Below are positions 21,071 through 46,619 of a stretch of 64,000 bases of DNA, piece by piece. The DNA is from Giardia intestinalis (taxonomy: Eukaryota). A program made the translations under genes and the position numbers. The DNA lies in NCBI GenBank assembly GCA_000002435.2, contig CM018793.1; one strand, given 5' to 3'. Within the stretch, counting starts at the first letter, position 1. Every line of letters begins with the position of its first letter. The notes beneath the pieces were generated by a model. That model did no database searches, was not told the origin of the DNA, and was given only the letters and a program-made list of their open reading frames with translations.

Positions 21071-21177
21071 GGATTTTTAATTTTGTAGGCCACCGGCGAT
21101 AAAGTGCCACGGGGCTTCATTTACATGGAAGAAAACCGGGTTAACGGTCGTGCCCGTAATCCACCAGCGGCGTCAGA

Positions 21178-28110: not shown

Positions 28111-28159
28111 ATGTTTGCAACATACTGGCACATGACTGGCCCGGCCTTAAAATCACCGC

Positions 28160-31100
28160 ATGCTGATTCTCCTGTGTGCCGCTGCATGTCTCGCCGAGGC
28201 GTGCGGGACAGGACCTGCATGTGTTAACGGAGACTGCGCCTACGGGGACGGAGCACACTTCTGCCAGTGCAGGCGGGGCTGGGTGGGGGCTGCGTGTGAC
28301 GCCCCCCGCGCGGGGTTCCGCAAGATAACTACCAGTGGGCAGACACCCGCGGACAGGGCCGTCAACTACGCCTGCCTCGTGAACGGGACGGAGTGCACAG
28401 GGTCGAGCAAGTGCACCTACTACGCAGGGGCGTACTCGTGCGACCCCTGTCCTGCTGGCTTCGTGTCCTACGAGGGCGAGTGCCTGCCGAGGGGCTGCTT
28501 CAACACCGGCGATTACTCAGACCAGGAGGCAACGAAGGCCCCTTGCAACGGCCGCGGCCGCTGCCTCCTGAAGGACCCCGGGCTAGCAGGGATGGATGCT
28601 GACGACTACGCGTGCGACTGCTACCCGATCTACCGCGGGGGCCTCTGCCAGTCGTGCGACGACGCCAACGCGATCGCTGCGGGAAGCTCTTCGTCTGATG
28701 CCCTCCCTACGTGCAATGCGCGGGCCTGCCAGGACTCGGATGGCGTCGTGTGCTCAGGCCAGGGAACGTGCACCCTCGACGTGGGCCTCGATCGCGAATC
28801 ATATCACTATCGCTGCAAGTGCAATGATGGCTACACACGCGTTGGGCACAAGTGCGTCAGGACGGAGTGCGTGGCCACGATCGACGGGTCCCCGGTCGTC
28901 TGCGGGGGCTTTGGAGAGTGCACGGATAAAGATAGCCCCGGTACCTTCAAGTGCGTTTGCGATTCTAATGCAGTCCCGGTCGGTCAGTTTTGCACATATC
29001 CCGCGTGCACAGACAGCGCTGCTACTGAGATCTGTGGCGGAGTGGGCGCCTGTGTGCGTGACGGCGCTGGCTATAAGTGCGACTGCCGAGGGCTTGCCAC
29101 GGGCGACCTCTGTGATACTTGCACTCCTGGGAAATCCGCTCAGGTAGGCGACAAGTGCGTTCCAGTGGGGTGCCTCACCTCAAACAACCAGGAATCATGC
29201 AAGAACGGAGGAACATGCGTCAAGTCCGACGGCGAGTACCATTGCCGCTGCCCGGACATGCTCATTGCCGTCAGCGGAGAGTGCACGTCCCCCGCGTGCA
29301 TGGACGAGGAGCTGGGGAAAGTCTGCTCGGGACACGGCACGTGCAAAACGGACGACCCACAAGACATAAAGTGCACCTGTAGTTCTGAATACACGTACGT
29401 CGCCCCGGGGCGCTGCATCCTAACAGCCTTGATGGACGGCGACCGAATCTGCAGCGGCCACGGCCACGTTAGCATCGACACCTCGGATCCTCCCACGATG
29501 ACCTGCAGGTGCTCGTCGATCTACGAGGGGTCCAAGTGCGAGACCTGCAAGGCCTCTGTCGCCCAGGAGATCGAGGGCGAGTGCGTCCCAACCAAGTGCA
29601 TTGTGGCACCCCAGCCCGGATCGCGAGCCACCACTCCCAGGGTCTGCGACGACCACGGCCAATACACGAAGTTCGGCGACCCGAGCGACCCGTTTGCCAC
29701 GTGCACCCCCAAGGACCCCGACTCCGGGACCGTCTCCGCCTACAATGGCACCTTCCTTGCGAGGCCCGGGTGCGTGCATGTCAGCAAGGTAGACAGGACC
29801 AGGAGGTTTTACTGCGGATTCCTGCAGGGACTGACAGACAACTTGCAGGAAGGCGTGGTAACGTGCAATACACAGAACGAGGGATCTGTGTCTGTTGAGA
29901 CGTGCAATGGTTGCCCAGAGGGCTTTAAGCTTGTCCACTTCGGGGCAGAAGAGGGCTATAGAAAGACATGTATGCACGACAACTGCTACCACGGAACTGG
30001 CGCCAGCAGGATGTGGTACGACTACTGCGGCGGGACCGGCGACTGCATCAAAGAGGGTGACACGTACAGGTGCGACTGCGGCCCCAGTGCCACTTGGAAC
30101 GAGGGCCTGAAGGCGTGCGTCACCGAGGCGTGCAAGCTCAACAAAACGCTGGCCGGCCCAGAGGCGCCCGAGTACTGCGCAGCGCCATCTAGCCTTGCGC
30201 TCCACTGCACCGTCGGCCGGGACGCGGCCTGGCAGTGCGATTGCCCCCAGGGCGACTACCTCACGTACAACAGGACGTGCATCCTGAGGAGCAAGAGCGC
30301 CAGCCCCACGACCCACCGAGCAAGGGGGCTTTGCGGCGGCCCCGGGGCGGGCTTCCTGAGCGGCAGCGGGTCCTGCGTCTGCAACCCGGGCTTCCTCAAG
30401 ATCGACGACATGTGCTACAGCTATGACTGCCTGCCCGTGGGTGTGACGGCCGACACAAAGAGGTTGGACCTCAGCCCCCACGTCTGCTCCGGGAAGGGGG
30501 TCTGCGCGTACAACCAGCTGACCGGCCGATATGGCTGCGAGTGCGAAGCTGGTCTGGAGGCCTTCGGGGGCTACTGCACTCATCCCGGGTGCGCCGGGAA
30601 GGTGATCCACAACGGAGAGCTTAAATACGTTGAGTGCAAGGTCTACGACGGGTCCGTGGGCAGCTGCGTTCAGAGCGCAGACGGGGCCGCGTACTTCTGC
30701 GCCTGCAGCTTCCCGTACACATCTGTCGGCGGGCTCTGCGTCCATCAGCGCTGCGTGGTGAATGGCGAGTACTGCGGCGGCGACGCCCTGGCCTCGTGCG
30801 TGAGGGGCAGCGATAGCCTGTACGGCTGCGTCTGCTCCGAGGGCTACGAGCTGAGCGAGGAGCGGAGCGAGCACGGGAACAAGGCCAAGTGCGTCCCGAG
30901 CAGGTGCATGTACAGGCCGTCGGCAGGCGACCCCGCCATCGAGTGCAACGGGCTGGGCACGTGCGGCAATGGTGGCGGTGGGTCTCTGCTGAAGGACAAG
31001 AGGTGCGAGTGCAGCGGTGGAGCTCAGCTGCACACTCTTAGAGACGCAAGCGGGGAGCTGAGGGAGACGTGCATTCTGGACGCGTGCATCTCTAGCAAGG

Positions 31101-33235
31101 ACCAGGAGGTACCGGTGATCTGCGGGGGCTCCGGCAGGTGCGGGCCGAGCGGCTGCATCTGCAACCTGGGAACGAAGCTGTTTGGCAACGCCTGCGTCGG
31201 GATCAACTGCTTCATCAACGCCACGAATGACAGTGGAGGGGTTGCCGAGTCGGTGTGCGGGAGCGAGGCCGTCGGGGTGTGCACGAAGATAGCGTCCCAC
31301 GGCGACCGTCGAGATTACGCCTGCAAATGCGTGACGTCTCCCCCCGAGGGATACGAGGAGGTCGACGGGTTCTGCCTGCCAAAGTCCTGCGTATTCGCGG
31401 TTGGGACCCTCGACGGTCAGGACGCGAAGACGATGTGCGGCGGAAGCCACTTCGGGACCTGCGTGATCAGCACCAACCAGCAGACGAGCTCCTACTGCAG
31501 CTGCAAGAGCAGGCCCGACGTCGTTCAGCTCACGTCGGGGCAGTGCATGAAGCGGGACTGCGTCAGCGACGCCCTGCCCGGGAGCGCGTACCAGAGCATC
31601 GAGTGCTACGGCCACGGAAAGTGCAGGACGGGCGACGGCGTCACCTACGCGTGCAAGTGCGAGGAGGGATACAAGACGGTCAGGGGCGTGATCGGGACCT
31701 ACCTCTGCATCCCGCAGGCATGCGTCGTCTCGGAGACAGACACGGCCGCGGTCTGCAGCGGGCGGGGGACCTGCTCGGTGGACGAGAAGACATGCAAGTG
31801 CGGCACGGAGTATGCTGGCGAGAGGTGCGAGACCTGCGCGGCCGGCTACAAGGAGCACACGAACAGGCGGTGCTACCGCAGCAGCTGCCCGGAGGACGGG
31901 AATTGCGGCGTAGAGGACGGCGCCAGCCTGGGCAGCTGCCAGTTCGGCGGCAGTAGCTTCAGCTGCATCTGCGTCAACTCGAGCTTCGTCACCGACAGCG
32001 CCACCGGGACGTGCAGAAGGTCCAGGTGCGTCTGGGTGGACCCGTACGACCACGCGGAGAAGACGTGCTACGGCATGGGCTGGTGCAGCTACAGCGGGGC
32101 CACCGAGCAGTGCAGCTGCAACCCCAACACGGTCCCCGTCGGAGCGAGCGTATGTGTCTACGCGGCGTGCATGCCGAGTGGTAGCACCGATGACCCCAGT
32201 ATGATATGCAGGGGGCGCGGGACATGCGTAGAGGGCCCTGTCGCCGGCACGGGACTGTGCAGGTGCGACAGCAGCAGATACCGCACAGACAAGAAGACCG
32301 GCCAGTGCTTTGTCAAAGAATGCTTCGGGGCGCACGAGAGCATCCTGGCCGAGGTCTGCGATGGCGGTGGAACATGCAGTGAAGACACTAAAAAGTGCAA
32401 CTGCAACTCCTCCGGCTTCCAGAGCCTCGACGGCCAGAACGGCTGCGTGCACAGCAGCTGCGTCTCGTCGGACAACAAGCTCTGCAGCGGCTTCGGCGCC
32501 TGCGAGAAGACCGGCGACACCTACGGCTGCCTGTGTGCAAGTTACTATACTCTGGTCGACAAAGACTGCATCCCCACAAGGTGTCTCAAGGACGGGAAGG
32601 TCTGCAACGGCGGTGGCACATGCTCCGGCGAGGGATCCTCTGCTACCTGCAGCTGCAGCCAGGGCTGGACCCCCCACGGGACCCTCTGCTACCCATCGGC
32701 CTGCGTCTCCGGTGGGGCGCTCTGCGGGGGGAATGGCGACTGCCAGCTCTCCGACGGAGGCTCGTGCAGCTGCAGAAGCGGCTACGAGACCGTCTCCGGG
32801 GGGCTCTGCGTCAGCAGCCAGTGCGTCCAGCGCGGCACCGACGGCACCGTGACGATCTGCGGGGGCAACGGCAGGTGCGTGTCTGAGAACGGCGTGACTC
32901 CCAGCTGCGTGTGCAACGAGGGCTTCTCTCTCACAAGCGACTTCGTCTGCGGAGTCCCTGCTCCATCTAAAAAATCGTCTGCCGGCACGACGGCTGCGAT
33001 CGTGGTCGTCGTCCTCCTCGTCCTCGTTGCGGTGGCCGGCTTCCTTGTCTGGTGGTTCGTGATACGGCCCAGGAGAGGCGGCCCACTGAGGGAGCGCGTC
33101 CCGCAGAAAGGCTCCAAGTCTTCCAGCTCTTCTAGGTCCAAGCTCAGGCGGCAGGCGGACTCCAGCGTCTCGCTCCACGCCGACGTGCCCCTGCTGAGCC
33201 AGGCGTCCAACGTCAACTCCAGCATCCAGCTCTAG
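28160..33235 (+). CDS. High-cysteine membrane protein (HCMP), 1691 aa, EGF-like repeats, type-I TM with cytoplasmic tail (not a VSP)
   Basis: Signal peptide MLILLCAAACLAEACG. Dozens of CxC/GxC EGF-like units. TM AAIVVVVLLVLVAVAGFLVWWFVI followed by a ~70-aa basic/Ser-rich tail and no CRGKA. The 1293-aa minus-strand ORF 29420..33301 is its GC-driven antisense shadow. Confidence 0.85.
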   Translation: MLILLCAAACLAEACGTGPACVNGDCAYGDGAHFCQCRRGWVGAACDAPRAGFRKITTSGQTPADRAVNYACLVNGTECTGSSKCTYYAGAYSCDPCPAGFVSYEGECLPRGCFNTGDYSDQEATKAPCNGRGRCLLKDPGLAGMDADDYACDCYPIYRGGLCQSCDDANAIAAGSSSSDALPTCNARACQDSDGVVCSGQGTCTLDVGLDRESYHYRCKCNDGYTRVGHKCVRTECVATIDGSPVVCGGFGECTDKDSPGTFKCVCDSNAVPVGQFCTYPACTDSAATEICGGVGACVRDGAGYKCDCRGLATGDLCDTCTPGKSAQVGDKCVPVGCLTSNNQESCKNGGTCVKSDGEYHCRCPDMLIAVSGECTSPACMDEELGKVCSGHGTCKTDDPQDIKCTCSSEYTYVAPGRCILTALMDGDRICSGHGHVSIDTSDPPTMTCRCSSIYEGSKCETCKASVAQEIEGECVPTKCIVAPQPGSRATTPRVCDDHGQYTKFGDPSDPFATCTPKDPDSGTVSAYNGTFLARPGCVHVSKVDRTRRFYCGFLQGLTDNLQEGVVTCNTQNEGSVSVETCNGCPEGFKLVHFGAEEGYRKTCMHDNCYHGTGASRMWYDYCGGTGDCIKEGDTYRCDCGPSATWNEGLKACVTEACKLNKTLAGPEAPEYCAAPSSLALHCTVGRDAAWQCDCPQGDYLTYNRTCILRSKSASPTTHRARGLCGGPGAGFLSGSGSCVCNPGFLKIDDMCYSYDCLPVGVTADTKRLDLSPHVCSGKGVCAYNQLTGRYGCECEAGLEAFGGYCTHPGCAGKVIHNGELKYVECKVYDGSVGSCVQSADGAAYFCACSFPYTSVGGLCVHQRCVVNGEYCGGDALASCVRGSDSLYGCVCSEGYELSEERSEHGNKAKCVPSRCMYRPSAGDPAIECNGLGTCGNGGGGSLLKDKRCECSGGAQLHTLRDASGELRETCILDACISSKDQEVPVICGGSGRCGPSGCICNLGTKLFGNACVGINCFINATNDSGGVAESVCGSEAVGVCTKIASHGDRRDYACKCVTSPPEGYEEVDGFCLPKSCVFAVGTLDGQDAKTMCGGSHFGTCVISTNQQTSSYCSCKSRPDVVQLTSGQCMKRDCVSDALPGSAYQSIECYGHGKCRTGDGVTYACKCEEGYKTVRGVIGTYLCIPQACVVSETDTAAVCSGRGTCSVDEKTCKCGTEYAGERCETCAAGYKEHTNRRCYRSSCPEDGNCGVEDGASLGSCQFGGSSFSCICVNSSFVTDSATGTCRRSRCVWVDPYDHAEKTCYGMGWCSYSGATEQCSCNPNTVPVGASVCVYAACMPSGSTDDPSMICRGRGTCVEGPVAGTGLCRCDSSRYRTDKKTGQCFVKECFGAHESILAEVCDGGGTCSEDTKKCNCNSSGFQSLDGQNGCVHSSCVSSDNKLCSGFGACEKTGDTYGCLCASYYTLVDKDCIPTRCLKDGKVCNGGGTCSGEGSSATCSCSQGWTPHGTLCYPSACVSGGALCGGNGDCQLSDGGSCSCRSGYETVSGGLCVSSQCVQRGTDGTVTICGGNGRCVSENGVTPSCVCNEGFSLTSDFVCGVPAPSKKSSAGTTAAIVVVVLLVLVAVAGFLVWWFVIRPRRGGPLRERVPQKGSKSSSSSRSKLRRQADSSVSLHADVPLLSQASNVNSSIQL

Positions 33236-33449
33236 CCCGCTGCCCGCAAGGTGTCGGTATTGGTAAGTCGACGGCGCGGATCTGCATACGAATGTAAACA
33301 TGATTTACTTCGAGGTTAGTTTGTCAACTGCTGTCCGAACAGGTTTTCCATGTGAGCCATCGCTCTGGGCAGACCTCCCGCTCACCTTCCGAGACCCGAG
33401 AGCCGGATGTCCTAGATCCCCGTGGGAGAAGAAGAAGGTTTGCCTATCC

Positions 33450-33790
33450 TCTTGGAAGCTGCTGTGCTTCTCGCAGCGCCTTCTAGGACCTCCCCTTCCT
33501 CTGGCTGGTTGTGGGCAGCCAGGACTCGTTCGCTTCTGTCAGCCAGACACCCCAAGGATCCCATCTCTTGTCGAGGGATTCACATAGGTCACATGGTGAG
33601 TCCATCCCGATGAGCGTGGCAAGTGATCGGCGCCATTGCCAGCTGCAGGCTTTCAGTCGCCTTCTCTATCGCCTTGGAGGAGGAAGCATGAGGTTCTTCT
33701 TTTGTCATCAGAATGGTATGACGTCCGAACCTCGATTCCCTGACTTCAGATGATGAACAAGCAGGGAAGTTCTTTGCATGGCACTTGCAT
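33450..33790 (+). repeat. Direct repeat copy A (~330 bp, ~75% identical to 50825..51190) with a near-identical 36-nt core
   Basis: Core cccatctcttgtcgagggattcacataggtcacatg differs at 2 positions from copy B. Short ORFs in both copies end in ...PSLVEGFT / ...PSLAEGFT and share QGSHLLSRDSHRS / QGSHLLPRDSHRS. Confidence 0.7.
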
Positions 33791-33799
33791 GAGGGATTT

Positions 33800-36700
33800 G
33801 CTCAGACAGCAGCTACGGCGTCTGGCTACATGTTTCTCTTACGAGCCTGGTAATTGACCAGAGTTGCTTTACAGTCGCGGAGACACTGCTGCGTCTCTCT
33901 GAGTCTTTTAGAGAGACGATCCAGTTTAGTGTAGAAGAGTGAGGGCGATCCAGCCCCGTGCCTACGTGCTGCTCTGCAGTCTGCTGCTCCTGCTTTCTGT
34001 CTTCGTTTCCCTGAAAGCAGTCACGATGGCTCTCTGGAGCAATCGCTTGCATCCATCCGCAACCCTAGGCGTTACGGCTTGGAAGTCCATGTCACCGCAT
34101 AAGCTCTATGGAAGGCATTTACTAGCCATGGCAGATGGAGGTCGCCGCTTCTGGAGGCCCTGGTGCATGCCAGGCCTAGAAGACGCTGACTCCACTGGCT
34201 GCAGGAGCCCCCACCTACATGTGACAGCTTGAAGTAGCACCACTTCGAGGACAGAGGATATCCACAGCTCGAGAGGACGCGGCGGCAGAGAACAGACTCA
34301 GGCATAGCCACAAACAGACCCATCGATCCGGATGGATGAGGGCGGACACCTAATTGGCAAGCCGTTGGCTAGTCTATGTAGAATCGCACCCTCCAACGCA
34401 GGCTCTGACACACAAAGTTTAATGCAGACTATATGTACACAGCAGACGGGCAGAAGCCTGCTTCGTAGTGTGTGGAGGCTTTGATGAGGCAATCGCGGGC
34501 TTAATGAAGGCCGGGACCGGTAGCTCTAACAGAGGGCTTCCCAGCTTTGGAATACTTGCGATCACCATAGAGTCAATACAGTGAGTTATCTGCAGTAACA
34601 AACTTGTGGAGATAAGGGCAGAGTCCTATCAAACTAACTAGATACTAATGGATCCTAGCGTGAACTCGCAGTATAAGAACTTGCAGAAGGCACCGCATTC
34701 TACTCATCTGAGTAAGACGGCCAACTAAGTGGACCCATAGTGCAAAGACCACGAGGCCAAGGGCTCCTCCATAGCTTCAGAAGCCAACATCACAAGAGTC
34801 ACACTGGCTGCGGAGTGCTTTCTGATCCACTGAGGCTTAGCGGCATGGCTTCGTTTCCTAGTACGGCCAGACAGGCTTGAGACACGAGATACTCTGTCTG
34901 CTACAAAGCACACCTTCTGGCAGCGACTCTTGTCTATCGGGTAACTCTCGCATAGAGGAGGCAGATGGCTCTGAAGCGTCACTGCTCGCCTGATAGCTCT
35001 GGATCATAGCAGAGGAAGTTGTTTATGAGAATGCACCCCTAGTGTGTAGATCCACATTTTCGTGCGACGTGAGAAGACGTTTCTGGGTTGATCTGTCATG
35101 CCTCCATCTGCTCTAGCAAAATGTAACGCAACGCATGCACTATTGATCTATGTCGCCATGGCAGCCATAGTTAACTAGCCAACGAGACAATCGCTAGAGG
35201 AACCCTCGCACACTTATGAGCAGAGGCGCAGCCTGAGAGCAGTCCTCTGGCCGCTAAGTGATGGAGGAGCAGACATAGCGCTGCTCCGTGCAATCACACT
35301 CTCTTACCTTAGTAGCTATATGGGCAGCCCCGGTCTTGTGAGGTCTGTGGATAAGCTGCTTCACCCCATAAAACACTCAGAATTACTACAGGTGACACCT
35401 GCAAAATCTTACTGTTGGAGGCCATGCTCCACTAGAGACATGGCTCTGGAAACACATTGACTGATGGGAGCTCCCCTCTAGCGTTCTTAGGGGCGATGTC
35501 TGTCCACAATAGCTCTACACCCACTGCCTGTCTATGACCCAACTGTATCTTATTAGACCCCTATCTCCACTGAGTGGCTGATTCGAGGGTGATTGCCGTT
35601 ACCAGAATGATATCTTATATTGACTGCTAAGAGCTGTCTTTGCATATATTACGCTGCTTAGTACTGCACTCAAACGAAGTTTGCCATCGTTTCGCAGCTA
35701 TTGTGGATTGGAAGAACAGTTAGCACTCTCAGTAGTTCATGTGGTAATCGGAAGTCAGGGAAGTCTAAGTTGAGTGGGAAAGCTTGAAGAGGAAGTAGCA
35801 GCTCTTGTACTCCTCTGCTGGGTGATGCAGAGAACTGGCTCGTTTCTTAGCGTCGATAAGTTCTTCAGAATGCACGTTTCTTTGTATAAGGCCTGCATGC
35901 TTCGGATTGCCCTCTGTTGCCAGCAGAGCAGCCACCGCCCTGTGTGTCTCCTTCAGGCATATACCCATCTACGACGACGCCTCATGTATCCTCTCTGGAG
36001 AGGTATAACCGTCCCAATCCAGACACCTTGCTCTCAGCGCACACCTCGTATCTATCAAAGGCCAGGTGTTCGTCAACCATATCCCGTGAGCATCAGCGCT
36101 GTGCCACTATGTTACTTCCTGTCCTTCTTGAGGGGCGTGCTCTGACCATCTCAGTGTCTCTATGATAGGAGAGCTGTGGATCCGGAGGCTGCTGTGGCTT
36201 TCTGGCCCTCTCTGCTGTCCAGTAGACTGCAAGAGCGCCCTTCGGGAGTCGGTCCCCCAACCCTCTGTTCTCTCGGGGAAGTGGTCCTTGGATAGTGCTA
36301 CTTGGATGGTTCCCGAAGCCTCACTGCACGGGTGCTGCTTCTAAGAACTCCTGGAGCCTCCCTACAGAGTCGCCCAATGGCGCAAGTCTTACCCATTGTC
36401 AGCGGGGGTCTTGGCTCTCAAGGACATCTCAGGGACAGTACGTTTGACCCACGCCAGTGCCACTTCCTGGCAGAGGCATGCGGAAGATCTACTCCCTCTT
36501 GTGGATCCATCATTGGTATCGAAAGCACTGCGTCTGTTACCTTCGTTGGAGGTGTCGACAGATGGTACCCCGTATCTGCCCCATTGAAGAGTTGGAGGTC
36601 TGCTAAGGACAGCGAAGAGGATCCCATCAGGGCTGTGATCATATACCCGTCATTATGGCAACCATAGTGTAGATAAGACAACTGTCTGAGTCCTGTGACT

Positions 36701-39700
36701 CCCGGGGTGAGACGCCAGGGGCGTAGCTAATTCAAGCTGATGAAGGCTACCCTTGTCATAGCAGGCTTAGAAAATAGGGAGCGAGTGACGTACCTGGTGT
36801 CCATCAACGCACACATGCAGCCTGGAAGCCGTGTTCAAAGCACCAAGGCCTGCAGGGGAATGGCATCCGAACAGGCCCAACAGTTATGACTGTTTCTGAG
36901 GACAAGTCAGCGTGACTAAACGAGAACATGAGAACTCACAGAGACCCTCACAGTTTTGATGTCTGGGAGAACGTGGGGGCTGACCACTCCAAGGTTGTCC
37001 ATCTCATGAGCTGGCTTTCGATAGCAAACATAACAAGGAAGTGACCCCTAATTATACACAATCTCATGCCAGCCCATCGCAGGATAGACCATCATTGCCT
37101 GACCTACCAATCCGTCCATTGCTGTGATAGATGTAACAGTACTTCATCATCGGCCACCTTGCGGCTACACAGTCAGGGTATTATCCGTGACATTGCTTGC
37201 TGATGCTCTGCATAGGGCCCTGTCCTCGTAGAGTGACAGATGAGCCTCTCTGTATATGTGGATCTAATGATATGGCTCCTCTGGGACTTTCCACCTCTGC
37301 TTCTGTCTAGTATCTCACATCAATATGAAGTGGCCAGTGGCTGTTATTGGATCTTGCAGCATAACTATTACACATGTATGTGCCCATCAAGACTACCATA
37401 TAGGGTCACACAAGCCGGGAGCTCTGTCAGGCAATTATCGGACTCGATATCAAGATGGCACGGGGACAACACTCCCAGTGGTCGCTGAAGCATGAAGCAT
37501 TATATAGATCGTATAGCATACCAGCGGCAGCACAACGGCAGAGGACATACTTAGATGTAGATAGCGCCTACAGCAAGCGGCATGCTGTCGTTGTCGGTAC
37601 AACGGGCATAGTGGCTACTGGATCCACGCTTTGGTAGCCTCGATTGGAGCAATTGCACAGCGAAGGAGCAGAGCGAGGGGGCATGGAAACCAACCGGTCG
37701 AGCAACGTGTACATGTACGAGCACAGTTATAAGTCTCGCCCACACTAGTGGGTGGTGCTCTGCCTCAATGTGGACTCAGCGGGTTAGCTCTTATATCTAT
37801 GGTAGGGAGCAGAACACCACGCTGGTCATGTGATGAGAGGTCTTCATGCGGTCTTCCAACTAGCCTAGGCAGCACTTGGAAGCGACCAACCCTCTCGTAC
37901 CACGTCTCCTCTCCAAATAGGACTGAAGGCGCCCAGGGCGCTCTTCTAGGGCCTTAGTATCATGGAGCCCGTGCCAGGCAGGAAGGTTCTATATTACATA
38001 GCATGAGAGCCTCTATGACGTGTAAATACTTGCGTGGTTGTAGTGACGCGTCCTCATCAGCAAGTGTCAGGGCACATCAGTGGACAACTGTATAATAAGT
38101 CAGGCACTCTGTGTGCGATCATGCATCACAGCTCTCGTAACGGGCTACGGGCGACCTGAGGACTAGTACTCTATGGCAGCGCAATGTGAGGCGGTGAGCC
38201 TAAGGCAATCGCCGGATCGATGGCTTCAACGCGGCATCCAACAAGGTGCAGCAGGGCATCGAGCCAGCTGAGCATTGAACCAGGCCCTGGATAGGAGCTA
38301 AGAGCTCCTGTGCATGGCTGGGCTGCTCTCTAGATGGGAAAGGATGCACGTCGAGCTGGTCAGGTGCGATGCTGTAAGGTATCCACAGCTGTATCGATGC
38401 ATCTGGTAAGTCCACACTGGACTCCGGGAAGCACGCTGCCGGACAAGCCGAGGAGGCTCGAGGGATGATGGCGCCGTCTTGTTATCGCTATGCAGTGCTC
38501 CGTGGACATGTATACAAACCAGCATCTCCTGGTAGCCGAGGAGGGGGCAGAGCTAGGAGACGGCGAGTGTCCCATTATGAACGACTCCAGGCGCTACCCG
38601 ATCACTCCTTGGAAGGGCATATGCCTCGGCTAGGTTGCATCACATCCAGAGTAGAAGAGGAAGCTGTACTGTCCTATTTGTTTCTCAGGACAATGTGCGA
38701 ATAGAAAGCGGCCCAGCGACTGACACTCTGCACCGTCCTCCTCATCCGCGGCCTGAGCAGCCAGATGCCAGGCTCGATATGTAGGACGGAAGCTGCGAAG
38801 AATAAACTCACCACGGGGCCGATTGTCTGACACCAAAAAATCCAAAGGGACGATAGCGCCCACTGCCTCTTAGGAGAGCGCATCATGCACGATACCAGCC
38901 GTGCCAGCCTTGGCTTCTTAGGGGAGTAACCTGGGGACGTCCTGTACTAGCTTCGGCTTGTGAGGCGTTAAGACCTGTGAATAGCACAAAAGGAGGCAAC
39001 TGGGTGTACAGGCAGTGCATTGTGTTCGTGGAAGTGTACCGCAACTTCTAGGTGTATACAGCGGCACTAAGCCGGGCATCTCAACTGGCCTGCATTGGCG
39101 ACCCGCTTGCCACCGTGTTTGCTGTGATGAGAGGCTGTGTCTGTCCAACAGATTGAACAGGTATTGCACTTGCTTCTCTGGTGATGCATGCATGGTCATA
39201 TGTAGCTCTGGTAGGTAGCGTGGATACTATGATAGCTAAGCTGTCTGCCATCAGTAGAGAGTAGCAGTTAATCGCGCCAGAGACTCTTCCAGGTAAGCCT
39301 TCGGTCTTCGTGCCTGCTTCTCCACCAACTATAGTAATAACTGTATATCCAGAACAATGCCATGAAACGCTCCACTGCCTTTCAGAGTGAGACATGGACC
39401 TGCGTATAGGGCTAGAAATAGAACCCTGTACATCAACTGTTGTGCGCCTGGCGTGATGTCAGGTCTAGACCGCGGCACGATCTCTGCGTGCTTATGTGCT
39501 TGCGTGCATGCTCACTGCTATGTTGGAAATTGCAGCAAGGAGGTTGGCCTCTGAGTGCACCCACTCTACAGTGACTAGTCCTTAGCTGCACGTCTCAACG
39601 GAGGAGGGTGCTACTTGGGTGTGCAAAAGACTATCTGTGCACGGCGGCTCCTGGAGAGATGGTTCGCACAGAAAAGGTAGAGGCGACCAACAGACCAGGG

Positions 39701-42600
39701 AGGTAAGATCATCGCTAGAGAGTCTAGTTATAGATCTGGATTGCAACGAGGACACTTGTAATGCCTTTCTGGCCTCCGAACATAGAAAGATTGCAAGGCC
39801 TATAAATAGATCGGAGGCTACTTTTTGATTTTGTGCATTTGTAGCGGCGTAATATTTATTGGGAGCCAGTCTCGTCTGAAGCTGGGGAAATTCACTTTCT
39901 CTCCATATACAGGCGAAGATCTATTGTAGAGGCATACTGTACAGGCCGGTACCAGTCGGCGTGGTTGCTGTCCACAAATGTCTCACTTGCGTCCTCCCAC
40001 AACAGATGAATCGCCAAAGTGTCTCTTGGATTGCGTGATGTCCTACAGTGCATCTCTGTTTCGGCCAAAGATTGGCGCACGCGTTGTGTAGTTTAGATTG
40101 CTCATCCCCATGAGGATGTAATCCGCTCTCATCCTCTGCTTGTCTATCTCGTACGACCACTGCTGATGACCTTTCCAGATCAGTGGGTGCCTTCATCGGT
40201 CCTGCAAAGGCACGCATCATGTAGGTGACTACTGCAGACCAGAGTTCTGTCTACCAAGGAAAAGGGTCAATCTGTTTACCGCGTAGGCATTCATTGTGTG
40301 CCCTATATAGTCCAGCAGGTCTTGTGCTCTTTAACATTTTCTCAGAGCCCTGTCTGGAGCCTGCATGCATATCGTTACTGACGAGCACTTTAGATTCACC
40401 TAGTCACCTAGGACGTCAAATCCCTTACGCTGCATAATGGGTATGCTCAGTGTGAGAGATACGTAGTCAGCATCAGCCTTCTCGGCTCATTGTCTGGGCA
40501 ATACTACTGCTGTTTCTCATCCAATCCGCTGGCGCGAGGACCCAGCTCATGGCTAGCAAACCGAGAAAGGCCATTCCGGGAGGTCTTCAAGCGCGCTAGT
40601 ACCTCGTTAGCGGGTAGCTAACAGTGACCGTGGCGCGTACTTCCACCAAGCCATGGCCTCCTTGAGCGGGGGTGTGAAATGGGGCCCTGTTATCCTGCGG
40701 CCCTGCTGATTCCCCGGACAGCAGGGATCGGAGCAGCCCAGCTAGCGCCTCTGGGTCTCCTTCTGTCCTCGTTGTCTGAGATGCGCTTGACTCTATAAAC
40801 TTGAAAAGGTACTGTACTGTGCTTGGGTCTGCGAGGCTCAACTAGGCAGGGCTACCCTCTTGGAGACTACGCTGAGGTACCACACATCCCGAGGAACCTG
40901 TATGGAGTACCACAGCCCAAGGGCACCTTTGTCTGTCGAATGCAAGTTGTAGTTATGGCTTCATAAGTGCAGCCTTTCTTAAAATAACTGATCAACTACA
41001 GAATTCGCCTACTCACCCAGAGCCACCTGATGGAGGATGATATCAGTCTCGTCAGTCGTCTACAACGTACACCAGTCGAGTCTTACAGATGAACAAGGGC
41101 TACCCAGTCCGCAGCACTAGACATTAGCAGATATCCTTCACGACAAGGGGGATAAGCGACTGGTAGACCAAAATAGTCGTCTGCCCATTGAAGATCTTCC
41201 AGTCACTGACCTAGGCCAGCTTCCTACAAGATTCTTGGCGAGTTGTATCAGAGACGCATGCTTATGGAACTCCCAACTCAAGGTGTATGCTGCTGGATCC
41301 CACCTTTCATACCAGTCTATGTATAGCGGTGCTCCGGCCTTTAGTGAAACTACCCTGGAGACCACATAAAATATAATGCCCCAGTCGGGTATTATCAGAC
41401 TCCTACAGCTATGCAATGAGGTCTGCTTTTCGCATTACGCATCAGAGAAGTATGTTGGGCTGTAGTGGTGCAATTCCTCGTATGGTATGGTTCGTGAGTC
41501 CAGAGATAAGATGCTTGTATCAATCGATCTGTTTACCTAGGGCCAACCATAAGTTGGACTAACGGTGACAATCAGACGCTGCTCGACTTCCTGACAGCAG
41601 ATAGAGATCCGACTACCCTAGTACCTTACCTGAGACCACAGGGACGCTGATTACGGGTCTGATTAATAGCTGGCGGAGCGACACGACAGGCCTAAGTTTT
41701 TTCTGCCGAAGTAGCCCACCACAAGAAACTCTTTGTCGTTCATACCAACAGATTCAGGCACTGCAAGCAATCGTGGTTCTACTACCGCTACAATGGACAG
41801 CACCAGGATGATCCAAAAGGGGTAATGGGAGTCCTGGTTTCTTAGCTTAGGAGACAACGCGGTTTGGGCAGTGCTTCCTCCTTGTCCAAATGTAGAAGTG
41901 TTGGCCTGCGTTTCCTGAGCTCCAATTGAGTCTTTGTCGTGCGGTGAGGTATCTTAAAATATCCATTACAAAAAGCGAAGAATAGCGCCGTCCACGCTCA
42001 ACAAACCAAAGCGTCTCACGGGCTAATCTACACCGATTCACATCTTCCATGGACCTTAGCGACCACCGTAACCTTCTGCTAGAATCTCACGGGAGCTCGT
42101 CTTTGAGTCCAGCTCTCCTACAACAGTCAGAAGCCGCAAACATAATCTGATGAAGGAGAATGCTGCAAGGACTGAGAAGAGAGTGCCGGTGAATGGGGGT
42201 TCGCAGGGACCCGATCCGCGCAGGGAAGGCGCAGGGGCCAACACCTCGGGGACACAAGGGCGTTAGGAGAGGAGCCAGCAGCAAATCTGTGGCACAGCGG
42301 GGACACTCAGGGCGTCCTTTCATTGTCTGAAGGGCAGGGGAGAAGCAGGTGTGTGAGGCGGTCCAGCAGATTATTTTTGAGTTTCTGCCTCCCTGCGTGC
42401 TGCACGAGGATGAATTTCCTTGGAGGCCGCTTGCCCAGGCCCAAAGGGTCCCTAGGGATGGCTTATACAATAGACACATTTACTACCCACTAATTTGCAT
42501 CTCTCAAACAAAGGTATCATAGGAGATGGACTCTTGAGATTATCTGATATAGTATGATCAGGTAGAGTGCTTTAGCTTTGGATATCTTATTCTTGTCCAT
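33800..42600. other. ~8.8 kb region with no ORF >130 codons on either strand and no recognisable protein motif
   Basis: The six-frame track shows only short ORFs at random-sequence density. GC is ~50%. No tandem repeats were seen. An AT-rich promoter for the VSP sits at its right edge. Confidence 0.6.
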
Positions 42601-42623
42601 ATAATAAGCTAAGAAGGGCTTCA

Positions 42624-44534
42624 ATGTTATTGGTAGCTTTCTACTTCGTGCTGAGCGCTCTTACGGCAGCTTGTCAATCGGATGCCCAAATTGCTAAATG
42701 TACGCAGTGTGTAAAAATAAGTACAAGTGATACTGAGATCTGTACAGAATGCAAAGCTGAAGGAGACGTTCCTATCAACGGAGTATGCACACCAAAGGGG
42801 GATGCTACTGTCACAACTGCTGGATGTAAGACTGATGCTGGAGCTGAAATAACAACAGAAAAGACATGTGGGCAATGCGACGGGGCTTACTTCCTCCATA
42901 AGAACGGATGCTATGCAATTGGCGGGGACGTTGGACGCCTTATTTGCGCCGATGCCGCAGCTGCTGGTCGTGTGTCATCAAAAACTCCTGGCGTTTGTGA
43001 GGGTTGCGTAGTTGGCTATTTTAAAAACCCAAGTGCAGCTAACAATAAGGACTCTTGTATTGCATGCAATGATGCAACTGGAGTTGTGGATGGTGGAAAT
43101 ACGTATAAAGGAATTCTGAACTGTGCTACGTGTCAGCCGCCAGCCAGTGCTGGTGCTGCTCGCCAAGACAAGGTTGCCGTATGTGAGTCATGTCTTGAGG
43201 GGTTCTTTGTTGACAGCAATGGGGCAGCATGCACAGCATGCCAGGACAATAACTGTGCTAAATGCGATGCAGGAGCAGGAAAATGCACGAAGTGCAAGGC
43301 AACCGCTAACAAGCCATATCTAAAAAAGGGCGAAACCGAGGACTCTAATACATGTGTTGATAAAAGTGGATGTAATGATAACTCCCACTTCACTGATGAT
43401 GCTGACGATCCTACTAATGGAAAAATGTGTAAGAAATGCTCAGAAGGGATAGCAGACTGCAAAACGTGTGCTTTGAAGGATAATCCTGAAGGTACAATTC
43501 TCATCACGTGCTCTGCTTGTATAGCAGGTACTAATCAACCCAACGCCGACGGAACGAAGTGTGTACTATGTGATATACAGGATTGTATAAAGTGTAATGA
43601 AGAGAATATGTGTGAAGAGTGTACTGGAGGTAAAAGCCTAAGCCCCTTAAAGAACATGTGTATGGAGGGCTGTCCTGCAGGAACTCGTGATGTCAGCGGG
43701 ATATGTACTAATTGCCATAATTCTTGTGCAGAATGTGATGGTGATAGTGAAGCCTCCTGTACAGCTTGTTATCCTGGGCTTGTATTGAGCAAAAGCAATA
43801 CTGGAGCCACCGGCACATGCATCCCAGAGTGCACGGGAAGGTACGCAGAGAACTGCGAGGCTGGCCAGTGCACGGCCGTCGTTGGGGGCTCGAAGTACTG
43901 CAGCAGGTGCAAGGCAGGGTTCGCCCCGGTGGACGGCGTCTGTGTGTCGACAACGACAAGGGCAGTAACTGGATGCATGCCAAATGATAACAATGATGGA
44001 ACATGCAAAGCGTGTACAACCACATACTTCTTGCAATCTGGCGGATGCTATCAGTCGGCTGCATACCCAGGCAGCAACCTATGTAGCAATGCTCAGAATG
44101 GAAAATGTACGAATTGTGCTAATGGACAACAACCAGAAGCTAGCACTGGATCTTGTCCAGCATGTGCATCTGGTTGTAAAACATGTGAGGTAGCAAACAA
44201 GGAGGCATGCAAAACGTGCCTTCCGGGATACTATCTTGCCGGAGCAAAATGTGTGAAGTGCGACACCAATGATCCCAATGATGGTAGCCATATTGTTGGT
44301 GTCCCAAATTGCGTAAGCTGTGCCCCTCCAACTGGTGGCAATGGCGGTCCTGTCACCTGCTACGTCAAGACAGATGTCACTAACGATGGTGGTAACGATA
44401 ACAACGGCGGGAACACGAACAAGAGCGGCCTTAGCACAGGCGCCATAGCGGGGATCTCCGTCGCTGTCATCGTTGTTGTCGGCGGCCTCGTCGGCTTCCT
44501 CTGCTGGTGGTTCATCTGCAGGGGCAAGGCGTAG
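42624..44534 (+). CDS. Variant-specific surface protein (VSP)
   Basis: Signal peptide MLLVAFYFVLSALTAAC; >10% Cys, mostly as CXXC; GGCY motif (LQSGGCYQS); C-terminal TM GISVAVIVVVGGLVGFLCWWFI plus invariant CRGKA tail; AGTAAAC 13 nt after the stop. Confidence 0.95.
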   Translation: MLLVAFYFVLSALTAACQSDAQIAKCTQCVKISTSDTEICTECKAEGDVPINGVCTPKGDATVTTAGCKTDAGAEITTEKTCGQCDGAYFLHKNGCYAIGGDVGRLICADAAAAGRVSSKTPGVCEGCVVGYFKNPSAANNKDSCIACNDATGVVDGGNTYKGILNCATCQPPASAGAARQDKVAVCESCLEGFFVDSNGAACTACQDNNCAKCDAGAGKCTKCKATANKPYLKKGETEDSNTCVDKSGCNDNSHFTDDADDPTNGKMCKKCSEGIADCKTCALKDNPEGTILITCSACIAGTNQPNADGTKCVLCDIQDCIKCNEENMCEECTGGKSLSPLKNMCMEGCPAGTRDVSGICTNCHNSCAECDGDSEASCTACYPGLVLSKSNTGATGTCIPECTGRYAENCEAGQCTAVVGGSKYCSRCKAGFAPVDGVCVSTTTRAVTGCMPNDNNDGTCKACTTTYFLQSGGCYQSAAYPGSNLCSNAQNGKCTNCANGQQPEASTGSCPACASGCKTCEVANKEACKTCLPGYYLAGAKCVKCDTNDPNDGSHIVGVPNCVSCAPPTGGNGGPVTCYVKTDVTNDGGNDNNGGNTNKSGLSTGAIAGISVAVIVVVGGLVGFLCWWFICRGKA

Positions 44535-44546
44535 ATGTACTTAGGT

Positions 44547-44553
44547 AGTAAAC
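44547..44553 (+). terminator. Poly(A) signal AGTAAAC downstream of the VSP
   Basis: Exact AGTRAAY match. Confidence 0.55.
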
Positions 44554-44829
44554 GCGTTGCTGTATATGGATTATGTAGATTATGCTACTAGGCCCCGGCT
44601 GCTGGTGCGTCCAGACGTCCCACGGGTAAGCCTCACCCATGTCCTGGCCGTCTGGAGACGAGGGCTGGTTGTGGATAACATGCTAGGGATTCCTCTCTAT
44701 TAGCGCATCCAGAGCTTGGTGCGCCCCTCTGCCACTTCGCGGGCATGTACTCGATTTGAGTGTGCGCGTCCAGGGCCCTGGCCTTTTCGCAGACTCTCTG
44801 CTCTACCCGTGGCGCCTCTCCTTGGTCTG

Positions 44830-45100
44830 CCGTCCTGGTGGGTGAAGCTCGGGTCGCTGTCTTTTTTAGATGCCCCGTCTGTCGGGGGCTGCCACCAGGC
44901 TCTCTCACTGGCTGGGCCCCTCGGTGTCCGTCCGGCTGTGTCCCGGGCAACGCTCCCACAGTCCAGTCACCTAGGTCTCACAGTGGGCCGGCTGGTGGGT
45001 GAGGCGGGGTTGGTGGGGCGGTGAGGCCGGAGGGGACCGGGGGCGGTGTCTCTATGTGCCCCTGGGTCCGGTGGACCATTGAGGTGGTGGGTGATCCCCA
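44830..45100. repeat. Left arm of a long degenerate inverted repeat (pairs with 46620..46905)
   Basis: The reverse complement of the right arm aligns at ~80-85% (e.g. ggccggctggtgggtgaggcggggttggtggggcggtgaggccggagggg vs ...gaggcagggttggtggggcggtgaggccggagggg). Both arms give short ORFs ending GRLVGEAGLVGR, on opposite strands. Confidence 0.75.
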
Positions 45101-46619
45101 CTCTGTTTGCCAAGGTGGTTGTGTCTGATCTCCAGCCTTCGTTGCACTCCCGAGACAGAGGCACCGACGATCGTGTCGTGTCCCTTGACTGAGTGCCTCC
45201 CTTGGCCCCTGCATGTCTCAAGTAGTACTGCTGCTCTGTCTGGCTGGTGCGTGAGGGGTGAGGCAGACCATCGCAGCCCATCTTGATGCTCTGTGCGGGT
45301 CTGCTGAGCCTCCTGGCATGCCCTGTCCAGTGCCTCGACGGTAGTTCACCTCGGGCCAGCAGGGGTATGGACAACCCTGTGGATGGGATGGGGTTCTGTC
45401 ATGCCTCTAGTGTGATGGCCCAGAAGACTGGCACGGTGGGGCACTGGTGGCTGCACTGTCCCCGTGGCCAGCTGTGCTGCTCCTGGTAGATCCTTGTTGT
45501 GGAGCGCTGTGTGTTGTTCATAGGCAGGGGTGAGTCCTCCTTGGTCTCAGGATGCTCTACCATCAGAGAGGAGTACGCTGAGGGTCACCCAACATCACCT
45601 GCTGTGCCCTCGGGAGCTCCCGATGTGATCTATCAGGACCTTGACACCTCCTCGTGGCTCTGATGACCCCTCGGGGAGAGCCGGGGCACCCTATACTGAG
45701 GGGTGTGCACCCTCCTGCACGAGCCGGGTCACCCACTGCACTGCCCCCAAGGAGGTCTGCTATGAGAGGCAGTGGGATGATTGACAGCCCCTCAGAGTGC
45801 AGTGGAGGGTGCTCGTGGTCGTCTCTGTGACCGGGCATCACTCTGATGGTCGGCTCTGTGCCTTTGTGGTGCTCAGAGGTCACCTGTCCTCCATAGCCTG
45901 CCGGACAGCCGGGCCTCTTGTGGCATCCAAAGGCCTCCTCGCTCCTCTGGCTGCTGCCCCCTCGGGTCATCGGTGGAAGTAGTCGAGGCCAGCGGAGTCT
46001 TCGGTGGGTCGTGCCTGCCTGGGTGTCATGGGGGGCTGGCAGCTGTCAGGGCTCTGCCACTGCTCGCCTGCCTGGAGTGTGCCTCCCTTGGGCCTGCTGT
46101 GCTGTAGTGTTTGAGTCCTCTGGCTTCCTATCAGGCCCTTGGTTGTGAGGGTGACTTCACCTGGCCCTCTGATGCCCCTGTGGATGAGCACAGTAATGTG
46201 TCTGGCCGGGGATCTCTGGTGCCCGTGTCTGTCACTGCCTCTCGGGTGCTCGGGTGGTTGCCTGGGGCTCTCGTACGGGGCACAGTCAGCGTGTCCCGAG
46301 CAGACTCCAGTCCTCTCTGGGTCATGCACAGTCTGTCCGTGTGTGGATGGTCCTCCTGCACTCAGGTCCATCTGTGTGCACTGTCACTCAGTCTCGAGAG
46401 CAGACCAGTGCAGTCACCAGGGCTGCTGTCAGAGGGAGTCGTCTGCCACTACATCGCTCGAGCAGACCCTACAGCTCAGGCTGGCTGCTGTGCACCCTCA
46501 TGGTAGGGCTGCCTGACTCCCTTGGTCATCCTCTCTGTCCCGGTGTGCACGGCTCCTGAGGCGTTGTCTGGGTGGAGGCACTCACAGACCACGAGCCCAC
46601 AGAGGGGTGAGTCACAGAT

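What the first reader, a model, noticed from the sequence alone, without database searches (positions are those of the whole stretch)
33800..42600. 8.7 kb with random-sequence ORF statistics on both strands in an otherwise compact genome
No ORF exceeds 130 codons, none carries a recognisable motif, and short ORFs occur at the density expected for unconstrained ~50% GC sequence. It does not look like a recently decayed gene (no long frame-shifted ORF remnants as seen in the NEK pseudogene). I saw no tandem repeats and no retrotransposon (RT/endonuclease) remnants. Candidate explanations are a long non-coding transcription unit, structural chromosomal DNA (for example a centromere-associated or replication-related region), or an anciently decayed insertion. 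One weak internal hit: 36420..36480 resembles the conserved core of the flanking direct repeats (caagga-catctc...gggaca vs caaggatcccatctcttgtcgagggattcaca).
Basis: seen in the sequence. Interest (0 to 1): 0.55.

Follow-up and report, generated by a model that had tools for sequence, protein, structure and literature searches.

The report
Long non-coding spacer upstream of VSP gene
The 9.3 kb gene-free stretch is real, but it is an unusually long example of the non-coding DNA already known to surround Giardia's variable surface-protein (VSP) genes, and about half of it is an old duplicate that travels with the VSP gene.

Summary
Observation confirmed. Window 33305-42575 (Giardia duodenalis WB, chr5) has no stop-free run of 150 codons or more. 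It shows no codon-usage signal, tandem repeat, Pfam domain in six frames, Rfam hit, or similarity to the window's VSP, HCMP or NEK genes.

The stretch is a composite lying between an HCMP gene and a complete VSP gene, inside a 28 kb variable island:
- **R (33312-33690):** a dispersed repeat. In another Giardia genome it sits 53 nt from a reverse-transcriptase relic.
- **B (33691-38153):** orphan non-coding DNA with no detected homologue.
- **C (38154-42623):** the VSP's extended upstream region.

C, the VSP and the downstream inverted-arm spacer together have a 71-85% identical paralogue in isolate DH. Since that duplication C has evolved as non-coding DNA. Mismatches are even across the three codon phases, and 45 of 49 indels are not multiples of three. 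The VSP control shows the opposite pattern.

The syntenic 10 kb in assemblage E lacks the stretch, and another A-like isolate has a breakpoint at 33.3 kb.

Gene-poor VSP flanks and extended non-coding VSP upstream regions are already published. This is an extreme instance of an ordinary feature, and I found no evidence for a centromere or a structured RNA.

The parts
28160..33235 (+). High-cysteine membrane protein (HCMP, EGF-like, 1691 aa). Left neighbour of the gene-free stretch.
   Evidence: 100% identical to KAE8304611.1 on a 4,018,654-bp Giardia duodenalis contig. A second copy, KAE8304628.1, differs by 2 aa.
33312..33690 (-). Block R, a dispersed repeat of about 380 nt. Probably a 5'-truncated 3'-terminal fragment of a dead non-LTR retrotransposon; this origin is inferred.
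   Evidence: 79.5% identical to DH locus L011 8361-8758, which lies 53 nt downstream (minus strand) of an RVT_1-matching ORF. Alignment A1. The similarity stops abruptly at 33675-33690. A core of about 125-170 nt recurs at 50906-51030.
33691..38153 (.). Block B, 4.46 kb of orphan non-coding DNA with no detected homologue.
   Evidence: No coding potential. No Pfam hit. No match to any fetched Giardia locus, including the DH retroelement relic. GC 0.516, CpG o/e 0.59 and TpA o/e 0.90 are almost the same as in block C. The ORF at 34072-34323 was the old annotation's GL50803_32736.
38154..42623 (+). Block C, the extended non-coding upstream region of the VSP gene. It is the distal part of a duplicated VSP module.
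   Evidence: Homologous to DH L011 8338-4174 at 72.5% over 3147 nt plus 70.5% over 613 nt, or 71% over 4121 aligned columns. Mismatches by phase are 384/410/398 (p=0.62), and 45 of 49 indels are not multiples of 3. The 104-aa ORF at 39081-39395 is the old GL50803_107308. Its DH counterpart P0039 is 51% identical, as expected for neutral DNA.
40970..41270 (.). Best-conserved island inside block C. It reflects either constraint or a gene-conversion tract.
   Evidence: 80-93% identity per 100 nt, against 71% overall. 93 of 100 positions match at 41067-41166 (binomial P=5e-8). There is a 31-nt exact match at 41123-41153.
42624..44534 (+). Complete VSP gene (636 aa, CRGKA tail) with a canonical initiator, tCAATGTT, at the start codon.
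   Evidence: ORF and translation. Equals KAE8304612.1 and KAE8304640.1, two identical loci. Initiator sequence. Coding-type divergence from the DH paralogue: mismatch phases 137/125/197 and 9 of 9 indels in multiples of 3.
44535..47250 (.). GC-rich non-coding spacer with inverted arms (about 44651-45076 and 46656-47205). It is part of the same duplicated module and looks like the spacer of a tail-to-tail inverted VSP pair that has lost one VSP.
   Evidence: Inverted repeats. 84.6% identical to DH L011 1-2351, where it lies between two VSP 3' ends. In P15 the flanks 44623-44669 and 47184-47275 are only about 250 nt apart. No Pfam hit in six frames.
50906..51030 (+). Second, shorter copy of the core of repeat R.
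   Evidence: 83-84% identical to 33520-33630 and to L011 8572-8697.

Best explanation
The stretch is non-coding spacer DNA of the kind known to surround Giardia VSP genes. This instance is unusually long because three unrelated pieces lie end to end.

The VSP-proximal 4.4 kb (C) is the gene's extended upstream region. It was copied as one unit with the VSP and its downstream inverted-arm spacer, and has since drifted as non-coding DNA. The leftmost 0.38 kb (R) is a dispersed repeat, probably the truncated 3' end of a dead non-LTR retrotransposon. The middle 4.5 kb (B) is old non-coding DNA of untraceable origin with the same composition as C.

The whole stretch sits in a 28 kb island (27.2-55.6 kb) between conserved core genes. 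This island is reshuffled between isolates by duplication, inversion and deletion.

Shown here: absence of coding, the paralogy of C, non-coding evolution of C, the breakpoints, and absence from the syntenic assemblage E segment. Inferred: that the DNA has no sequence-specific function beyond being the long, transcriptionally quiet flank typical of VSP genes; that R derives from a retroelement; and that B is decayed filler.
For: - **No coding signal.** ORF lengths and codon usage match simulated sequence. There are no domains in six frames, and the method has a working positive control.
- **Context.** The stretch lies directly upstream of a complete VSP with the PyAATGTT initiator. HCMP and VSP carry consecutive protein accessions, so no protein-coding gene is annotated between them.
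- **Paralogy.** DH contig AHGT01000063 carries spacer, VSP, C and R in one block at 70-85% identity. Orthologous AI/AII divergence is about 1%, so this is a paralogous unit.
- **Non-coding evolution of C.** Mismatch phases are 384/410/398 (p=0.62) and 45 of 49 indels are not multiples of 3. The VSP control gives 137/125/197 (p=5.6e-5) and 9 of 9 in-frame indels.
- **Mutation spectrum.** The transition:transversion count in C is 921:271. This fits Giardia's strong transition bias (151:10 between AI and AII), unlike the VSP coding sequence at about 1.2.
- **Composition.** B and C are compositionally alike and CpG-depleted with TG/CA excess, as is the spacer.
- **Rearrangement.** In P15, synteny ends after the Vps-like gene, and the next 10 kb has no match to 33.3-42.6 kb. 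An A-like metagenome contig runs from the HCMP stop into the reverse of 47275-47086.
- **Literature.** VSP intergenic regions have median 1280 and mean 2131 nt, against 79 and 392 genome-wide. Neighbouring hypothetical ORFs are not transcribed, and retrotransposon remnants occur between VSP pairs (10.1101/2022.03.07.483299). An 'extended noncoding region upstream' is typical of vsp genes (PMC2996952). 'Regions around VSPs tend to be gene-poor' (PMC7000408).
Against: - At 9.3 kb the stretch is more than four times the mean VSP intergenic length, so 'typical VSP flank' alone does not explain the size.
- Block B, half of the stretch, has no identified origin.
- C is less diverged (29% mismatches) than the third codon positions of the co-duplicated VSP (48.5%). 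It also contains a roughly 300-nt island at 80-93% identity. This could mean constraint rather than neutrality, although VSP recombination or gene conversion explains it equally well.
- No transcription or chromatin data could be examined.
- No whole Giardia genome could be searched by nucleotide similarity. Copy numbers of R, B and C are therefore unknown.
Confidence: 0.7

Rival explanations
1. Regulatory DNA or a lncRNA. The long upstream region, or at least the conserved island at 40.97-41.27 kb, would be a cis-acting element or non-coding transcript. It would travel with the VSP and help control which VSP is expressed.
For: C is duplicated together with the VSP as a unit. C is less diverged than VSP third codon positions. 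One island reaches 93 of 100 identities. [quoted passage not shown]
Against: The 270 nt nearest the VSP start are the least conserved part, at 38-58%. There is no Rfam hit at E<=1 and no excess predicted RNA structure. VSP neighbours are reported as not transcribed. Conservation differences can arise from gene conversion, which is common among VSP loci. Only two copies were available, so covariation could not be tested.
Confidence: 0.12
2. Block B, together with R, is the body of a full-length but completely decayed non-LTR retrotransposon or another ancient gene. R+B is 4.84 kb, and GilM is 5.5 kb.
For: In DH, R lies immediately 3' of an RT relic (RVT_1 E=2.7e-6). In the window B occupies the position next to R where that element's body would lie. 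The size is about right (GilM is 5474 bp; PMC7000408). Retrotransposon remnants are reported near VSP pairs.
Against: Similarity to the DH element stops abruptly at the edge of R, although R itself is 79.5% identical. B has no blastn or tblastx match to the 2.9 kb DH relic. B has no RVT, endonuclease or zinc-finger signal at E<=1. It also has no residual codon signal.
Confidence: 0.15
3. Structural chromosomal DNA, namely a centromere or a replication origin.
For: It is a large gene-free block in an 81%-coding genome. I found no published map of Giardia centromeres to exclude it.
Against: There are no tandem or satellite repeats. There is no AT-rich or otherwise distinctive composition; GC is 0.52, as in the core genes. 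Half of the stretch belongs to a unit also present at another VSP locus. The stretch is missing from the 10 kb fetched downstream of the conserved anchor gene in P15 and is rearranged in another A-like isolate. The HCMP and VSP that flank it have second copies on the same chromosome.
Confidence: 0.03

Closest known systems
Extended non-coding upstream regions and gene-poor flanks of Giardia vsp genes (Adam et al. 2010, PMC2996952; Xu et al. 2020, PMC7000408; preprint 10.1101/2022.03.07.483299)
   Same: It lies directly upstream of a complete VSP that has the PyAATGTT initiator. It has no genes and sits in a synteny-break island with HCMP, NEK and ankyrin family members. Old short 'hypothetical' ORFs inside it have since been dropped from the annotation.
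   Different: It is 9.3 kb long, against a VSP intergenic mean of 2.1 kb and median of 1.3 kb. Only the proximal 4.4 kb is shown to belong to the VSP unit. The upstream 2 kb has GC 0.50, against the published average of 0.539.
Inverted (tail-to-tail or head-to-head) vsp pairs separated by 2-4 kb of non-coding DNA (Adam et al. 2010)
   Same: The module downstream of this VSP (44535-47250) is a 2.7 kb non-coding spacer with inverted arms. Its DH paralogue lies between two VSP 3' ends.
   Different: In the window only one VSP remains. That spacer lies outside the reported interval and is not homologous to the 9.3 kb stretch.
Dead non-LTR retrotransposon relics of Giardia (GilD / Genie 2 type; recalled from Arkhipova & Morrison 2001 and Burke et al. 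2002, which I did not read here; relics near VSP pairs are mentioned in 10.1101/2022.03.07.483299)
   Same: In DH, repeat R is contiguous with an RT relic that is flanked by a partial inverted copy of R. A review notes that Gil elements have unusually long 3' UTRs (PMC5537684).
   Different: No RT, endonuclease or zinc-finger remnant is detectable anywhere in the window's 9.3 kb. Only about 380 nt (R) is related to the relic-bearing locus.

Membership tests
VSP-associated extended non-coding / gene-poor region | Lies immediately next to (upstream of) a complete VSP gene with a signal peptide-like N-terminus, a TM domain and a CRGKA tail | tested here: met
   The VSP at 42624-44534 ends ...FICRGKA. 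It is identical to the annotated VSP KAE8304612.1.
VSP-associated extended non-coding / gene-poor region | The VSP carries the initiator/Kozak-like PyAATGTT at its start codon | tested here: met
   The sequence tCAATGTTa spans the ATG at 42624.
VSP-associated extended non-coding / gene-poor region | No protein-coding gene in the interval, and a length well above the genome's mean intergenic distance (392-477 nt) | tested here: met
   9271 nt with no ORF of 150 codons or more and no codon signal. HCMP and VSP have consecutive accessions.
VSP-associated extended non-coding / gene-poor region | Raised GC in the 2 kb upstream (published average 53.9%) | tested here: inconclusive
   The upstream 2 kb has GC 0.504 and all of C has 0.514. 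Both are below the published mean, but that figure is an average and not a criterion.
VSP-associated extended non-coding / gene-poor region | Lack of transcription of the flank | not testable with these tools
   No expression data are accessible here. Only the general statement in 10.1101/2022.03.07.483299 is available.
VSP / HCMP (cysteine-rich) pseudogene | BLASTx/tblastn similarity to Cys-rich proteins, or VSP/EGF domain remnants in some frame | tested here: not met
   tblastn of the window's VSP, HCMP and Cys-rich proteins gives no hit better than E=0.59. There are no PF03302 or EGF hits at E<=1.
Non-LTR retrotransposon relic (GilD / Genie-like) | Reverse-transcriptase, endonuclease or zinc-finger remnants | tested here: not met
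   There are none in six frames at E<=1. The same method detects RVT_1 in the DH relic.
Non-LTR retrotransposon relic (GilD / Genie-like) | Nucleotide similarity to a known element copy | tested here: inconclusive
   Only R (33312-33690) matches sequence contiguous with the DH relic, and B does not.
Centromere | cenH3 occupancy, usually with satellite or otherwise distinctive repeats, at one locus per chromosome | not testable with these tools
   There are no tandem repeats. Part of the stretch is a multi-locus unit. ChIP data were not available.
Structured non-coding RNA gene | Match to a curated RNA family, or folding energy beyond that of shuffled sequence | tested here: not met
   Rfam gives 0 hits at gathering thresholds and at E<=1. 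There are no tRNAs. The mean fold z-score is 0.11, against 0.31 in the coding control.

The most novel reading that the evidence does not exclude
The VSP-proximal block C, and especially the island at about 40.97-41.27 kb (up to 93% identical between 71%-identical paralogues), would be a conserved cis-element or non-coding transcript. It would be co-inherited with VSP genes and would take part in silencing or switching of VSP expression.
Probability: 0.08. Interest if true: 0.7.

Novelty: already known. Interest (0 to 1): 0.22.

Why it matters
How Giardia expresses only one of roughly 130-300 VSP genes at a time is still unresolved, and the long non-coding VSP flanks are candidate control regions.

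This analysis shows that one such flank is inherited as a unit with its VSP. It has evolved without protein-coding constraint since the duplication. It also sits at a breakpoint that differs between isolates.

That helps with annotation: the old short ORFs GL50803_107308 and GL50803_32736 are not genes. It also identifies one short conserved island that could be tested.

Otherwise the stretch is an ordinary, if extreme, example of a published genome feature.

Tried and rejected
- **Decayed VSP/HCMP/NEK gene.** Rejected: no tblastn or tblastx similarity and no domains.
Rejected as chance.
- **Hidden small gene at 39081-39395** (old GL50803_107308, with a 51%-identical ORF in DH). Rejected: mismatches show no codon phase (windows 39054 and 39354), and 51% amino-acid identity is what about 70% identical neutral DNA would give.
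- **B homologous to the DH retroelement relic.** Rejected by sensitive blastn and tblastx.
- **Structured RNA.** No support.
- **Assembly artefact.** Rejected.

Dead ends:
- A 4898-aa concatenation of all stop-free segments found nothing in the search for homologous proteins. It also failed to recover ORFs known to be in that database, so the result is uninformative.
- The exact HCMP, VSP and second-copy HCMP proteins are not indexed for contig retrieval. The WB paralogous copies therefore could not be fetched.
- A metagenome scan for a 24-mer from the conserved island found nothing.
- Searches for the SRA run numbers and old gene IDs in the paper library found nothing.
- No Giardia centromere map was found.
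- Arkhipova & Morrison 2001 is not held in the library.
- The first RNA-fold scan timed out.
- The exact look-ups of 33939-34232, 34725-34982, 40596-40841 and 41138-41416 used GTG/TTG-start ORFs given as DNA. They may have failed only because of the first residue.


Full report
**Source and setting.** The window is Giardia duodenalis (intestinalis) WB, assemblage AI. The HCMP at 28160-33235 is 100% identical to KAE8304611.1 on a 4,018,654-bp contig. The ORF at 42624-44534 is an annotated VSP, KAE8304612.1. The two accessions are consecutive, so the current annotation places no protein-coding gene between them. Pfam annotation of the neighbours shows conserved core genes on both sides: a Vps-like RING protein at 22252-27201 and TruD at 55662-57698. 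Between them lies a 28 kb island holding the HCMP, the gene-free stretch, the VSP, a non-coding spacer, a NEK remnant, an ankyrin protein and another Cys-rich gene.

**Checking the observation.** No frame has a stop-free run of 150 codons or more between 33305 and 42575 (9271 nt). The next such gap in the window is 1880 nt. The longest run is 130 codons, slightly shorter than Markov simulations of the same sequence produce (means 151 and 170). The number of runs of 100 codons or more is 11, which is in the simulated range. A codon-usage log-likelihood scan trained on the window's genes gives at most 0.045 anywhere in the stretch. The null gives 0.067 +/- 0.020, and genes score 0.1-0.35.

The other screens were all negative:
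- No tandem repeats.
- No internal repeats.
- No Rfam hit at gathering thresholds or at E<=1.
- No tRNA.
- No excess predicted RNA structure: mean z is 0.11, against 0.31 for a coding control.
- No Pfam family at E<=1 in six-frame translations with stops masked. The same procedure recovers an RT remnant in a related locus, so it is not blind to relics.
- No significant tblastn or tblastx match from the window's own VSP, HCMP, NEK and ankyrin proteins.

The sequence is real. Contigs assembled independently from five sequencing runs match 39019-42924 at 99.2-100%. Two short ORFs inside the stretch were 'hypothetical proteins' of the 2007 annotation.

**Anatomy of the stretch.** A HMMER search of 1.84 billion representative proteins used the 125-codon stop-free segment 39084-39458(-). 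Apart from the segment itself, it found a 97-aa ORF with 51% identity. That ORF lies on contig AHGT01000063 of assembly GCA_000498715.1, locus L011. I recall this assembly as isolate DH, assemblage AII.

Nucleotide comparison of L011 with the window gives these matches:

| L011 | Window | Identity | Feature |
|---|---|---|---|
| 1-2351 | 44498-46845 | 84.6% | Inverted-arm spacer |
| 2724-4034 (VSP, minus strand) | VSP | 75-78% | VSP gene |
| 4174-4778 | 42402-41796 | 70.5% | Block C |
| 5277-8338 | 41262-38154 | 72.5% over 3147 nt | Block C |
| 8361-8758 | 33312-33675, opposite relative orientation | 79.5% | Repeat R |

Orthologous AI/AII sequence differs by only about 1% (L008, 98.95% over 15.5 kb). 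The DH locus is therefore a paralogue, not the orthologue. This divides the stretch into three blocks: R (33312-33690), B (33691-38153) and C (38154-42623).

**Block C is non-coding and co-duplicated with the VSP.** I aligned 38100-44560 globally with the DH paralogue. C is 71% identical over 4121 aligned columns. Its mismatches fall evenly on the three phases (384/410/398, p=0.62). Of its 49 indels, 45 are not multiples of three, and most are 1-2 nt. The adjacent VSP coding sequence in the same alignment serves as a control. Its mismatches concentrate in the third phase (137/125/197, p=5.6e-5), and all 9 indels are multiples of three. C has therefore evolved without protein-coding constraint since the duplication. 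This also disposes of the old ORF GL50803_107308.

The transition:transversion count in C is 921:271. AI versus AII core sequence gives 151:10, and the VSP coding sequence gives about 1.2. C thus carries the organism's mutational signature rather than a selected pattern.

Conservation along C is uneven. It is about 80% at 38.19-38.89 kb and 80-93% at 40.97-41.27 kb, where 93 of 100 positions match (P=5e-8). It is only 38-58% in the 270 nt nearest the VSP start. The island may reflect constraint or a gene-conversion tract, and two copies cannot distinguish these.

**Block R.** In DH, R lies 53 nt downstream, on the minus strand, of an ORF matching the C-terminal part of RVT_1 (E=2.7e-6, motif AYTDGILIF). 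A C2H2-like finger scores only weakly (E=0.48) further upstream in another frame, and a partial inverted R copy lies at about 11672-11741. In the window the similarity ends abruptly at 33675-33690. A shorter core recurs at 50906-51030. The simplest reading is that R is a 5'-truncated 3' fragment of a dead non-LTR element. This is inferred, not shown. A review notes that Giardia Gil elements have unusually long 3' UTRs (PMC5537684).

**Block B.** The 4.46 kb between R and C matches nothing. That includes the 2.9 kb DH relic (sensitive blastn and tblastx), every other fetched locus, and Pfam. Its GC (0.516), CpG o/e (0.59) and TpA o/e (0.90) are nearly the same as those of C (0.514, 0.65, 0.93) and differ from those of the core genes (0.52, 0.88, 0.72). 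This composition fits long-term neutral non-coding DNA. Its origin is unknown.

**Comparison between isolates.**
- *P15 (assemblage E).* Gene order is conserved up to the Vps-like gene. It is followed by a different arrangement: a VSP, a 5' fragment of the HCMP (83% to 28100-28855), short pieces matching 50.4 and 51.1 kb, the two outer flanks of the window's spacer only about 250 nt apart, and then an intact NEK kinase. Nothing in those 10 kb matches 33.3-42.6 kb.
- *An A-like Giardia contig from a gut metagenome* (97.6% identical in the core). About 140 nt after the HCMP stop it continues into the reverse complement of 47275-47086. The VSP module is therefore either inverted or the 33.3-44.6 kb segment is missing.
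- *Short-read assemblies of AII-like and B-like isolates.* Their contigs break 0.5-1.5 kb after the Vps-like gene.
- *Within WB.* The HCMP and the VSP each have a second, nearly or fully identical copy on the same chromosome.

The stretch therefore lies in a rearrangement hotspot, and its left edge is a breakpoint.

**Comparison with what is known.** Xu et al. [quoted passage not shown] Adam et al. [quoted passage not shown] They also describe inverted vsp pairs separated by 2-4 kb of non-coding DNA (PMC2996952). A 2022 preprint measures VSP intergenic regions at median 1280 and mean 2131 nt, against 79 and 392 genome-wide. It notes that neighbouring hypothetical ORFs lack transcription and translation, and it reports retrotransposon remnants and 'gene-free subtelomeric'-like sequence between VSP pairs (10.1101/2022.03.07.483299). 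The VSP in this window has the canonical initiator tCAATGTT. The finding is therefore an instance of a published feature. It is extreme in length because an orphan block and a repeat fragment are appended to the VSP's own 4.4 kb upstream region.

**Verdict.**
- *Shown:* real, non-coding, composite, partly paralogous, and rearranged between isolates.
- *Inferred:* functionally inert spacer (confidence about 0.7).
- *Rivals:* a regulatory or lncRNA role (0.12), B as a fully decayed retroelement or gene (0.15), and a centromere or origin (0.03).
- *Not testable here:* transcription, chromatin state, and the genome-wide copy number of R, B and C.

Noticed in passing
window 44535-47250: A GC-rich (0.61), CpG-poor (o/e 0.47) non-coding spacer with inverted arms: 44902-45076 vs 46845-46656 at 92%, and outer arms at 70%. 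Its DH paralogue lies between two VSP 3' ends. In P15 its two outer flanks are only about 250 nt apart. It looks like the spacer of a tail-to-tail inverted VSP pair that has lost one VSP. There is no Pfam hit in six frames.
   Followed up: partly
window 28160-33235 and 42624-44534: Both flanking genes have second copies on the same 4.02 Mb chromosome. The HCMP copies are KAE8304611 and KAE8304628 (2 aa differences). The VSP copies are KAE8304612 and KAE8304640 (identical). This implies a very recent segmental duplication whose extent I could not determine.
   Followed up: partly
L010 13484-13896 vs window 33298 / 47275-47086: In a Giardia contig from a human gut metagenome (ERZ28660572), the HCMP is followed after about 140 nt by the reverse complement of the spacer's right flank. 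This is a structural difference (inversion or deletion) starting exactly at the left edge of the gene-free stretch.
   Followed up: partly
L011 8759-11741 (DH contig AHGT01000063): A dead non-LTR retrotransposon relic on the minus strand, with RVT_1 at E=2.7e-6 and only a weak C2H2-like finger (E=0.48). It is bounded by repeat R and a partial inverted copy of R, next to a VSP module.
   Followed up: partly
window 12252-27742 vs L008: Mutation between sub-assemblages is extremely transition-biased: 151 transitions and 10 transversions in 15.5 kb of AI versus AII-like sequence.
   Followed up: no
window 33312-42623, 44535-47250: All non-coding blocks are CpG-depleted (o/e 0.47-0.65) with TG/CA excess (1.17-1.45), against 0.88 in the core genes. 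The CpG mismatch rate between AI and AII is about 1.6 times that of other G/C sites. This suggests CpG decay in neutral Giardia DNA.
   Followed up: partly
window 41786: Three independent read-set assemblies (SRR17450161, SRR32129102, SRR5468953) all have A where the window has G. This could be the second paralogous copy or an allelic variant.
   Followed up: no
window 50518-50973: A 151-codon ORF overlapping the second copy of repeat R has no codon-usage signal (0.02), is not in the protein collection and has no Pfam hit. It is probably not a gene, so 49.8-51.3 kb is also non-coding.
   Followed up: partly
window 53200-55660: This interval has a moderate coding-like signal on the minus strand (0.12-0.19) but only a 160-codon ORF (53752-54234). 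It may be a pseudogene upstream of the Cys-rich gene at 51279-53177.
   Followed up: no
L007 15792-18959 (P15): Assemblage E has a VSP directly after the Vps-like gene and only a 280-aa 5' fragment of the HCMP (83% to window 28100-28855). The HCMP is therefore truncated or decayed there.
   Followed up: partly
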